Virus record (IMG/VR): IMGVR_UViG_2563366805_000004
Span: 1 to 56,140 of that record
Source: a virus
Taxonomy: Duplodnaviria > Heunggongvirae > Uroviricota > Caudoviricetes
Reading direction: 5' to 3' (one strand)
DNA length: 56,140 nt
Below the pieces are notes generated by a model, which saw nothing but the letters and a program-made list of their open reading frames with translations, made no database searches and was not told where the DNA came from. The position numbers were made by a program, and so were the translations under genes. Positions 23,116-23,889 of the stretch are shown here, one piece after another (positions within the stretch are counted from its first letter, which is position 1; each line of letters starts with the position of its first letter).

Positions 23116-23889
23116 ATGGATATTACTGAGTTTCCTTCTGGAGTAATTGAACACCTTGGCTGGTATGTATACCGATTGATTGATCCGAGGGACGGAAGCA
23201 CCTTCTATGTAGGGAAAGGCAAAGGTAACCGCGTATTTGCCCATATGCGCGGTGAAGTGGCAGCGACTGATGATGACGAGTTACTGAGCAACAAGCTAAA
23301 GCAAATTAGAGAAATAAGGTTAGCAGGACTTGAAGTTATCCATGTCATCCATCGACACGGAATGACTGATGAAAAGACGGCGTACGAAGTTGAAGCAGCA
23401 CTTATTGATGCCTACCCTGGGTTAACGAATATCATGAATGGTGCTGGCAGCAATGAATTCGGCGCCGCGCATGTCAAAGAGTTGATAGCAACATATCAAC
23501 CCGAAACCATAACATTTCATCATAAAGCATTAATGATTTCCGTTAACAGAAGTGCAAAGGATTCAGAGCTTTATGATGCGGTTCGATTTAGCTGGCGCAT
23601 TAATGTCTCTCGCGCCAGCCAAGCAGAAATCATTCTTGCTACTGTAAGAGGGATCGTTCGAGGGGTTTTCATTGCTGATAAATGGCTCAAATCAACACGT
23701 GAAAATTTCCCTTCGTTGAAATACTGGGACGAGGATCCTGACTTTGAGGCAACACAAAGTTCGCGCTATGGTTTTGAAGGTCGAGAAGCCCCACCTGAAA
23801 TAGCAAATCTTTATCTTGGAAAAAAAATACCAGATGAATTAAGAAAAAAAGGAGCTATGTCCCCGGTCCGTTACTCACCTAATTTTTGA
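23116..23889 (+). CDS. GIY-YIG nuclease-domain protein (257 aa)
   Basis: N-terminal GWYVYRL…[15 protein letters not shown] matches the GIY-YIG motif; C-terminal ~150 aa unassigned. Confidence 0.7.

What the first reader, a model, noticed from the sequence alone, without database searches (positions are those of the whole stretch)
23116..23889. Solo GIY-YIG nuclease-domain gene in the prophage cargo region next to tfa
This is a stand-alone plus-strand gene with an N-terminal GIY-YIG motif and an unassigned C-terminal half, located in a typical moron position and closed by a bidirectional terminator. Single-gene nuclease defences and homing-endonuclease-like genes both occur in such positions.
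Basis: inference. Interest (0 to 1): 0.45.

Follow-up and report, generated by a model that had tools for sequence, protein, structure and literature searches.

The report
Known hmC-DNA restriction nuclease (PD-T4-3/CMoRE)
The gene is real, but it is an ordinary copy of a known single-gene anti-phage nuclease (PD-T4-3, also called CMoRE) that cuts the hydroxymethyl- or glucosyl-cytosine DNA of T4-like phages, and about one in six complete E. coli genomes carry it.

Summary
The ORF at 23116..23889 (+, 257 aa) is real. It matches the PADLOC model PD-T4-3 over its full length (E=7.6e-140). It is 97.3% identical (250/257) to E. coli O157:H7 CMoRE, whose crystal structure is solved (PDB 9U75/9U8D), and 85% identical to the APEC O1 enzyme (9U7U/9U7Z). 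Liu et al. [quoted passage not shown] Its N-terminal 'GIYxY-YIG' nuclease is held in check by an acidic lid loop. Its C-terminal domain reads 5hmC or glucosyl-5hmC. The tetramer cuts at CN11/N9G and blocks T2, T4 and T6 directly, without abortive infection. Every residue named in that paper is kept here: Y17, Y19, Y31, V92, L96, Y127 and the acidic run D52-E55. The gene is an autonomous moron cassette (about 22915..23947) with its own upstream region and a strong terminator hairpin. It lies between tfa and the ssrA-type att site of a lambdoid prophage, next to an EcoRII-type restriction-modification pair. The cassette with its flanks occurs in 867 of 5426 complete E. coli genomes. The defence reading is correct and the homing-endonuclease reading is not. 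The 'unassigned' C-terminal half is the modified-cytosine sensor. Already known; low interest.

The parts
22915..23115 (+). Upstream, promoter-bearing part of the mobile cassette. It is the right-hand part of the divergent intergenic region shared with the Dcm-type methylase gene.
   Evidence: Similarity to the O157:H7 copy, which sits in a different prophage context next to pinE, begins at 22915 (94.7% over 22915..23947). Only weak sigma-70 candidates are present, at 8 of 12 matches, e.g. TTGTGA-17-TAATAT at 23052..23080. The 9-of-12 scanner found nothing in this stretch. Promoter function is inferred from Liu et al., who obtained defence from 'native promoter' constructs.
23116..23889 (+). 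[quoted passage not shown]
   Evidence: PADLOC PD-T4-3 1-256/256, E=7.6e-140. PDB 9U75 E=5.1e-171 and 9U7U E=1.6e-150, both full length. 250/257 identical to 9U75 and 219/257 to 9U7U. Identical to RefSeq WP_000355482.1.
23158..23220 (+). GIYxY-YIG catalytic motif (G15 W Y17 V Y19 ... F30 Y31 V G K G35) of the N-terminal nuclease domain (roughly aa 1-110, nt 23116..23445).
   Evidence: Y17, Y19 and Y31 are conserved. Mutating each of them abolished nuclease activity and defence in the O157:H7 enzyme. R39, H43, E93 and N105 are invariant even in jumbo-phage homologues of 39-46% identity. Their catalytic role is inferred from GIY-YIG family knowledge.
23269..23280 (+). Acidic autoinhibitory loop, four consecutive acidic residues D52 D53 D54 E55.
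   Evidence: Read directly from the sequence. The O157:H7 enzyme has DDDD at these positions. Its 4A mutant gained activity on ordinary DNA and became toxic.
23488..23886 (+). C-terminal 5hmC/5ghmC-sensing domain (approximately aa 125-257), including Y127 at 23494..23496.
   Evidence: 5hm-dCTP binds this domain in 9U7Z and 9U8D, and the 5-hydroxyl bonds to the main-chain O of Y127. Y127 is conserved here. Five of the seven differences from 9U75 lie in this domain (Q169K, I172V, N197H, S200T, L201M). The domain boundary is approximate because the paper's text gives no residue number for it.
23909..23956 (.). Intrinsic terminator shared by the convergent CMoRE and tfa genes: hairpin 23909..23947 followed by a T-run at 23948..23956 on the + strand.
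   Evidence: RNA fold of -27.3 (+) and -27.4 (-) kcal/mol, z = -5.6 and -5.9. The similarity shared between different prophage contexts ends at 23947, so the hairpin travels with the gene.

Best explanation
The gene encodes CMoRE (PD-T4-3), a one-protein type IV, modification-dependent restriction system carried as a moron by a lambdoid prophage. It is expressed from the lysogen. The C-terminal domain binds phage DNA in which cytosine is replaced by 5-hydroxymethyl- or glucosyl-hydroxymethyl-cytosine, as in T2, T4, T6 and other Tevenvirinae. The N-terminal GIYxY-YIG nuclease then makes double-strand cuts, with a CN11/N9G geometry and 2-nt 3' overhangs, working as a dimer within a tetramer. An acidic lid loop (D52-E55) repels ordinary DNA, so the host chromosome and the unmodified prophage DNA, including its Dcm-type 5mC, are spared. 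Defence is direct, not abortive. What is shown here is the identity of the sequence, the conservation of the motifs and the architecture of the cassette. What is shown elsewhere, on a 97%-identical protein, is the biochemistry and the structure. What is inferred is that this particular allele behaves in the same way and is expressed from its own upstream region.
For: There is a full-length match to PADLOC PD-T4-3 (E=7.6e-140). The protein is 97.3% identical to the crystallised and biochemically characterised O157:H7 CMoRE and 85.2% identical to the APEC O1 enzyme. All residues named as functional in the paper are kept: Y17, Y19, Y31, V92, L96, Y127 and the acidic loop. Liu et al. 2026 showed about 10^5-fold protection against T2, T4 and T6. 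They also showed cleavage of 5hmC and 5ghmC DNA but not of C or 5mC DNA, sensitivity of T4(hmC), resistance of T4(C), and normal growth of cells at MOI above 1. Two independent studies agree. Deleting PD-T4-3 in its native host NILS69 sensitised that strain to Tevenvirinae. A 48%-identical Capnocytophaga homologue cut modified T4 DNA but not T4-GT7 DNA. The ORF is intact, and the protein is identical to RefSeq WP_000355482.1. The cassette with its flanks is in 867 of 5426 complete E. coli genomes, which argues for maintenance by selection.
Against: Nothing was assayed for this allele. It has seven substitutions relative to the characterised enzyme, two beside or within the acidic loop (T51A, E55D) and five in the sensing domain, and these could change strength or range. 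No convincing sigma-70 promoter or Shine-Dalgarno sequence was found upstream. The APEC O1 copy defended only weakly from its native promoter, so the expression level here is uncertain.
Confidence: 0.93

Rival explanations
1. It is a free-standing GIY-YIG homing endonuclease (Seg or I-TevI type) that cuts a site in cognate prophages lacking the gene and so spreads its own cassette.
For: The protein has a GIY-YIG domain. There is a weak PHROG 314 'homing endonuclease' match (E=0.0022). The cassette is found in different prophage contexts with sharp similarity boundaries. Jumbo-phage homologues are annotated 'putative homing nuclease'.
Against: The PHROG match covers only the nuclease domain. 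No NUMOD, IENR1 or HTH DNA-binding module was detected. The gene is not inside an intron, an intein or another gene. The 97%-identical enzyme neither binds nor cuts ordinary or 5mC DNA and shows no strict sequence requirement beyond two modified cytosines, so it cannot target unmodified lambdoid DNA.
Confidence: 0.02
2. It is a second, GIY-YIG-type type II restriction endonuclease (like Eco29kI, Cfr42I or Hpy188I) that is partnered with the adjacent C5 methyltransferase.
For: The gene is transcribed divergently from a Dcm-type methylase (21276..22751, -), with which it shares a 364-bp intergenic region. Type II enzymes with a GIY-YIG domain exist (established knowledge).
Against: The methylase already has a cognate partner, the convergent EcoRII-type REase (EcoRII-N plus EcoRII-C; PADLOC REase_II E=1.9e-234). 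At least 80% of the CMoRE query (gene plus flanks) is found in 807 genomes, but the att-RM-CMoRE block in only 244. In other genomes the upstream neighbour is an AraC-family regulator gene or a DinI-like pseudogene. An orphan type II enzyme would be lethal. The near-identical enzyme is inactive on unmodified DNA.
Confidence: 0.01
3. It is a CMoRE-family gene whose substitutions or weak expression make it silent or shift its specificity in this strain, for example towards other hypermodified bases.
For: It has seven substitutions, five of them in the sensing domain. The family shows plasticity, with weak activity on arabinosyl-hmC phages and activity of a homologue on phage Mu carbamoylmethyl-adenine DNA. 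The strength of the native promoter varies between alleles. Phage NIC06_P2 escapes PD-T4-3 in the native host but not when the gene is on a plasmid in K-12, where it is likely overexpressed.
Against: All residues named as functional are unchanged. The substitutions are conservative (E/D, I/V, S/T, L/M, K/Q, N/H). The exact protein (WP_000355482.1) recurs in unrelated isolates, which argues against decay.
Confidence: 0.04

Closest known systems
CMoRE / PD-T4-3 of E. coli O157:H7 (PDB 9U75, 9U8D; Liu et al., Nat Commun 2026, PMC12923530). The system was first recovered as PD-T4-3 from E. coli ECOR68 (Vassallo et al. 2022, as cited by Liu et al.).
   Same: Same length (257 aa). 97.3% identical, with no gaps. 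Same GIYxY-YIG motif, acidic lid loop, Y127 and oligomer-interface residues V92 and L96. Single gene. Resident in a prophage next to tail-fibre accessory genes.
   Different: Seven conservative substitutions (T51A, E55D, Q169K, I172V, N197H, S200T, L201M; window residue first). The genomic context also differs. Here the gene lies in a lambdoid prophage between tfa and the att site, beside an EcoRII-type RM pair. In O157:H7 it lies beside pinE in a degraded prophage.
CMoRE of E. coli APEC O1 (PDB 9U7U, 9U7Z)
   Same: Same architecture and same tetramer. 85.2% identical.
   Different: 38 substitutions. The APEC O1 copy defended only weakly from its native promoter.
PvuRts1I / AbaSI family (type IV, 5hmC/5ghmC-specific restriction enzymes)
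   Same: Works in the same way: modification-dependent, recognises 5hmC and 5ghmC but not 5mC or C, and cuts at a fixed distance (about 9-13 nt) between two modified cytosines to leave short 3' overhangs (for the comparison; cleavage geometry of PvuRts1I from my own knowledge).
   Different: The folds are unrelated. PvuRts1I has a Vsr-like nuclease domain plus an SRA-like reader (my own knowledge), whereas CMoRE has a GIY-YIG nuclease plus a sensor for which Liu et al. found no sequence or structural homologue.
Seg and I-TevI GIY-YIG homing endonucleases of T4-like phages
   Same: [quoted passage not shown]
   Different: No NUMOD or HTH DNA-binding modules. The substrate is defined by base modification, not by sequence. 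The function is host and prophage defence, not self-propagation.

Membership tests
PD-T4-3 / CMoRE (type IV modification-dependent GIY-YIG restriction endonuclease) | Full-length sequence match to the family model and to characterised members. | tested here: met
   PADLOC PDLC04031, 1-256/256, E=7.6e-140. 9U75 E=5.1e-171 and 9U7U E=1.6e-150, both end to end. 97.3% and 85.2% identity.
PD-T4-3 / CMoRE (type IV modification-dependent GIY-YIG restriction endonuclease) | 'GIYxY-YIG' motif with three tyrosines (Y17, Y19, Y31). | tested here: met
   G15-W-Y17-V-Y19 ... F30-Y31-V-G-K-G35.
PD-T4-3 / CMoRE (type IV modification-dependent GIY-YIG restriction endonuclease) | Negatively charged autoinhibitory loop between alpha2 and alpha3. 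| tested here: met
   D52-D53-D54-E55 at 23269..23280. The O157:H7 enzyme has DDDD at these positions.
PD-T4-3 / CMoRE (type IV modification-dependent GIY-YIG restriction endonuclease) | C-terminal modification-sensing domain (5hmC contact at Y127). | tested here: met
   The C-terminal half aligns without gaps to both crystal structures, and Y127 is conserved.
PD-T4-3 / CMoRE (type IV modification-dependent GIY-YIG restriction endonuclease) | Single-component system, with no obligate partner gene. | tested here: met
   The cassette 22915..23947 recurs with three different upstream neighbours: an EcoRII-type RM pair, a DinI-like pseudogene and an AraC-family regulator gene.
PD-T4-3 / CMoRE (type IV modification-dependent GIY-YIG restriction endonuclease) | Cleaves 5hmC/5ghmC DNA but not C or 5mC DNA, and protects against T-even phages. 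| not testable with these tools
   Shown for the 97%-identical O157:H7 enzyme and for other homologues. Inferred for this allele.
GIY-YIG homing endonucleases (I-TevI / Seg type) | C-terminal sequence-specific DNA-binding modules (NUMOD, IENR1, HTH, zinc finger). | tested here: not met
   Pfam at E<=1 lists only LEM-3_GIY-YIG and GIY-YIG. The C-terminal half is the CMoRE sensor domain.
GIY-YIG homing endonucleases (I-TevI / Seg type) | Located in an intron or intein, or free-standing with a cleavage site in the cognate empty allele. | tested here: not met
   The gene is intergenic, with its own terminator, and does not interrupt any gene. The near-identical enzyme does not cut unmodified DNA. 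Cleavage of an empty allele was not assayed directly.
Type II GIY-YIG restriction enzymes (Eco29kI, Cfr42I, Hpy188I) | Obligate cognate methyltransferase that protects host DNA. | tested here: not met
   The adjacent methylase pairs with the EcoRII-type REase. Most genomes with CMoRE lack this RM block: 807 against 244.

The most novel reading that the evidence does not exclude
The att-proximal trio of EcoRII-type REase, Dcm-type methylase and CMoRE is conserved as one block in 244 complete E. coli genomes. It may be a co-selected 'cytosine-state' defence module in which EcoRII restricts phages with unmodified CCWGG and CMoRE restricts phages that escape by hydroxymethylating or glucosylating cytosine. 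The methylase's 5mC is deliberately invisible to CMoRE. The shared divergent 364-bp control region might also couple their expression. Separately, the sensing-domain substitutions of this allele might shift its modification range.
Probability: 0.2. Interest if true: 0.3.

Novelty: already known. Interest (0 to 1): 0.1.

Why it matters
It matters little for discovery. The family was found by functional selection in 2022. Its modification dependence was shown in 2025, and its structure and mechanism were published in 2026. The practical value is in annotation. RefSeq/PGAP still names this protein 'LEM-3-like GIY-YIG domain-containing protein', PHROGs lists it as unknown function, and NCBIfam has no model, so a reader without PADLOC or DefenseFinder sees a hypothetical nuclease. 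It can now be labelled a type IV restriction enzyme specific for 5hmC and 5ghmC. It predicts resistance of this lysogen to T-even phages, which is relevant to phage therapy and host-range prediction given its presence in about 16% of complete E. coli genomes. It also illustrates a tidy moron cassette with defined boundaries.

Tried and rejected
1. The homing-endonuclease reading was rejected; see the rival explanations.
2. The reading as a second REase of the neighbouring RM system was rejected on co-occurrence counts and on the published substrate specificity.
3. The sigma-70 and terminator consensus scan of 22600..24100 found no promoter between the methylase gene and the ORF, and no terminator. 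A looser scan found only candidates matching 8 of 12 positions. The terminator was recovered by folding instead.
4. NCBIfam gave no hit.
5. tblastn against isolated phage genomes found no close relative, with every hit below 60% identity. The prophage allele is therefore not represented among the phage records of that collection.
6. ARAGORN and Rfam found no intact ssrA in the window. Only the 23-nt att core was detected, by BLAST against a related genome.
7. The text of Vassallo et al. 2022 does not mention PD-T4-3 by name; it has only a single 'GIY-YIG nuclease' remark. The ECOR68 origin is therefore cited through Liu et al..
8. Residue numbers for the catalytic Arg and Glu are not given in the text of Liu et al.. 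R39 and E93 are my inference, based on their invariance.
9. I did not run structure prediction, fold searches or the large homology searches, because a 97%-identical crystal structure makes them redundant.

Full report
**Observation**

The + strand ORF at 23116..23889 exists as described: ATG start, 257 codons, TGA stop. No in-frame start lies further upstream, and the next methionine (M44) would remove the catalytic motif. The annotated start is also the one used in the crystallised homologues.

The N-terminal GIY-YIG signature is genuine. Pfam LEM-3_GIY-YIG (PF22945) matches aa 28-110 at E=2.2e-14 and 54 bits, against a cut-off of 27. Generic libraries do not cover the C-terminal half, and NCBIfam has no model at all.

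The gene converges on tfa (23959..24543, -, Caudo_TAP E=6.9e-45). Between the two stop codons lies a hairpin at 23909..23947. It folds at -27.3 kcal/mol on the + strand and -27.4 on the - strand, with z-scores of -5.6 and -5.9.
- On the + strand a T-run (23948..23956) follows the hairpin.
- On the - strand the tail is weaker (UUUAUGCUUAU).
- 'Bidirectional' is therefore plausible but firm only for the + strand.
- The consensus scanner missed the hairpin.

**Identity**

- The protein matches the PADLOC model PD-T4-3 end to end (1-256/256, E=7.6e-140).
- It matches PHROG 5356, listed as 'unknown function', end to end.
- It matches two sets of solved structures over all 257 residues without gaps: 9U75/9U8D (E=5.1e-171) and 9U7U/9U7Z (E=1.6e-150).
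- Identity is 250/257 (97.3%) to the E. coli O157:H7 protein and 219/257 (85.2%) to the APEC O1 protein.
- The protein is identical to RefSeq WP_000355482.1, which PGAP names 'LEM-3-like GIY-YIG domain-containing protein'.

**What is known about that protein**

Liu et al. (Nat Commun 2026, PMC12923530) renamed PD-T4-3 as CMoRE. The system was first recovered from E. coli ECOR68 by Vassallo et al. 2022. Liu et al. showed the following.

1. Expressed from its native promoter, the O157:H7 gene lowers plating of T2, T4 and T6 by about 10^5. Cells infected at MOI above 1 grow normally, so defence is direct and not abortive.
2. The purified enzyme needs Mg2+ or Mn2+. It binds and cuts DNA containing 5hmC or glucosyl-5hmC, but not DNA with C or 5mC. 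T4(hmC) is restricted and T4(C) is not.
3. Cleavage follows CN11/N9G and leaves 2-nt 3' overhangs. It requires two modified cytosines.
4. The structures show an N-terminal GIY-YIG domain with an extra tyrosine ('GIYxY-YIG': Y17, Y19, Y31) and a 15-residue acidic loop that covers the active site. Neutralising the loop's four acidic residues gave activity on ordinary DNA and toxicity. The structures also show a C-terminal domain that binds 5hm-dCTP, with the 5-hydroxyl bonded to the main-chain O of Y127. That domain has no detectable homologue.
5. The enzyme is a tetramer, and interface mutations V92S/L96S abolish defence.

Two independent studies agree.
- Deleting PD-T4-3 in its native host NILS69 sensitised the strain to Tevenvirinae.
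- A 48%-identical Capnocytophaga homologue degraded modified T4 DNA but not T4-GT7 DNA. It also degraded phage Mu DNA at high enzyme concentration.

**Conservation in the window copy**

Y17, Y19, Y31, R39, R80, V92, L96 and Y127 are unchanged. The acidic run is D52-D53-D54-E55, against DDDD in O157:H7.

The seven substitutions are conservative: T51A, E55D, Q169K, I172V, N197H, S200T and L201M, with the window residue given first.

R39, H43, E93 and N105 are invariant even in jumbo-phage homologues of 39-46% identity. I infer that they are the catalytic Arg, His, Glu and Asn of the GIY-YIG fold. The text of the paper does not number them.

**Context**

Comparison with E. coli 2014C-3655 shows the same lambdoid prophage inserted at ssrA. 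Similarity to the window starts within the last 23 nt of ssrA, at window 19780..19802.

The gene order is: att core, EcoRII-type REase (20027..21241, +), Dcm-type C5 methylase (21276..22751, -), CMoRE (+), tfa (-), stf (-), lom (-), J (-). In phage lambda the corresponding stretch is the b region, the classical cargo or moron locus (established knowledge).

To the left of the att core the window carries a CP4-57-like island. The two elements are therefore arranged in tandem at ssrA, and no intact ssrA lies in the window.

**An autonomous cassette**

- The gene with its flanks is found in 867 of 5426 complete E. coli genomes, and 807 of them cover at least 80% of the query.
- The whole att-RM-CMoRE block is present in only 244 genomes.
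- In O157:H7 the copy lies next to pinE in a degraded prophage, with an AraC-family regulator gene upstream.
- In another lambdoid prophage it has a DinI-like pseudogene upstream and tfa downstream.
- Similarity between these contexts is confined to window 22915..23947, that is about 200 bp of upstream sequence, the ORF and the terminator hairpin.
- This is the textbook anatomy of a moron.
- G+C content is 43% for the gene, against 51% for the window and 54% for stf.

**Rivals**

- Homing endonuclease: rejected. The only support is a marginal match restricted to the nuclease domain. There is no DNA-binding module. The gene does not interrupt another gene. The near-identical enzyme does not act on unmodified DNA.
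- Second REase of the neighbouring RM system: rejected. The methylase has its own EcoRII-type partner. Most genomes carrying CMoRE lack the RM block. An unprotected type II enzyme would be lethal.
- A silent allele or one with shifted specificity: cannot be excluded without an assay, but unlikely given the conservation and the recurrence of the exact protein.

**Verdict**

The gene is an already characterised system, so the novelty class is 'already known' and interest is low (0.1).

The one mildly new angle is the recurrent linkage of an EcoRII-type RM pair with CMoRE. Together they would cover both unmodified and hypermodified cytosine phage DNA, and the methylase's 5mC would be invisible to CMoRE. 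This is an inference from co-location in 244 genomes and has not been tested.

Noticed in passing
window 20027..22751: A complete EcoRII-type type II restriction-modification pair lies directly upstream of CMoRE in the prophage cargo region. The REase is at 20027..21241 (+; EcoRII-N plus EcoRII-C; PADLOC REase_II E=1.9e-234). The convergent C5 methylase is at 21276..22751 (-; DNA_methylase plus the N-terminal DNA_meth_N domain). The block from att to CMoRE is conserved in 244 complete E. coli genomes. It may give complementary coverage of unmodified and hypermodified cytosine DNA.
   Followed up: partly
window 19780..19802: A copy of the last 23 nt of ssrA (the att core) marks the junction between a CP4-57-like island on the left and the lambdoid prophage on the right, so two mobile elements sit in tandem at ssrA. 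No intact tmRNA gene lies in the window.
   Followed up: partly
window 1550..9746 (- strand): The CP4-57-like island carries a cluster of defence-like genes. These are DUF2130 (1550..2965) with an OLD-family AAA_15/TOPRIM ATPase (2962..4842; PADLOC Old E=7.5e-59); DUF4391 (4877..5566) with an SNF2 helicase (5563..8844; PADLOC candidate C3a139 'HKD+Snf2' E=4.4e-128); and a WYL regulator (8841..9746). Related strains carry a type III RM system and a different ATPase at the same place, so this looks like a variable defence hotspot.
   Followed up: partly
window 14700..16322 (-) and 16541..16957 (-): ORFs of 540 aa and 138 aa in the island have no Pfam hit. The 540-aa ORF also has no PADLOC or PHROG hit, and RefSeq annotates it as hypothetical.
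   Followed up: no
window 17729..19596: Typical CP4-57 accessory genes: an antirestriction protein (17729..18187, PF03230) and the CbeA/CbtA type IV toxin-antitoxin pair (18926..19246 and 19204..19596).
   Followed up: no
window 50385..51846 (+ strand): Two overlapping + strand ORFs (308 aa and 182 aa) are oriented against the surrounding prophage genes. They lie between the Q antiterminator region and an N6/N4 DNA methylase (48714..49766), which is another classical lambdoid moron site. They have no Pfam, PADLOC or PDB match. The 308-aa protein matches PHROG 2802 (unknown function). At least 80% of the stretch is covered in 219 complete E. coli genomes, where both are annotated as hypothetical. 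This is a candidate uncharacterised two-gene moron.
   Followed up: partly
L005:2501..3265 (Serratia phage Moabite), L006:2492..3253 (Pseudomonas phage OBP), and other jumbo phages: Virulent jumbo phages of about 250-285 kb (Serratia Moabite, 2050HW and Kodama; Klebsiella N1M2; Pseudomonas OBP; Pantoea Survivor) encode full-length CMoRE homologues. tblastn identity is 37-45%. They are annotated 'homing nuclease' or hypothetical. In the two that I aligned (Moabite and OBP), Y17, Y19, Y31, R39, E93 and Y127 are kept but the acidic lid loop is not. A possible role is competition between phages, against rivals with hypermodified DNA.
   Followed up: partly
window 24002..24200 (- strand): Rfam family IS009 (RF02111) matches at 229 bits (gathering score 117), entirely inside the tfa coding sequence. 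This is probably a sequence-level match to a conserved tfa segment rather than a separate RNA gene.
   Followed up: no
window 24543..27509 (- strand): The side tail fibre gene (988 aa) contains three near-identical tandem copies of a segment of about 44 aa (…[23 protein letters not shown]…[15 protein letters not shown]) and a long Ala/Ser-rich low-complexity region. The repeats also cause internal self-matches in the BLAST comparison.
   Followed up: no
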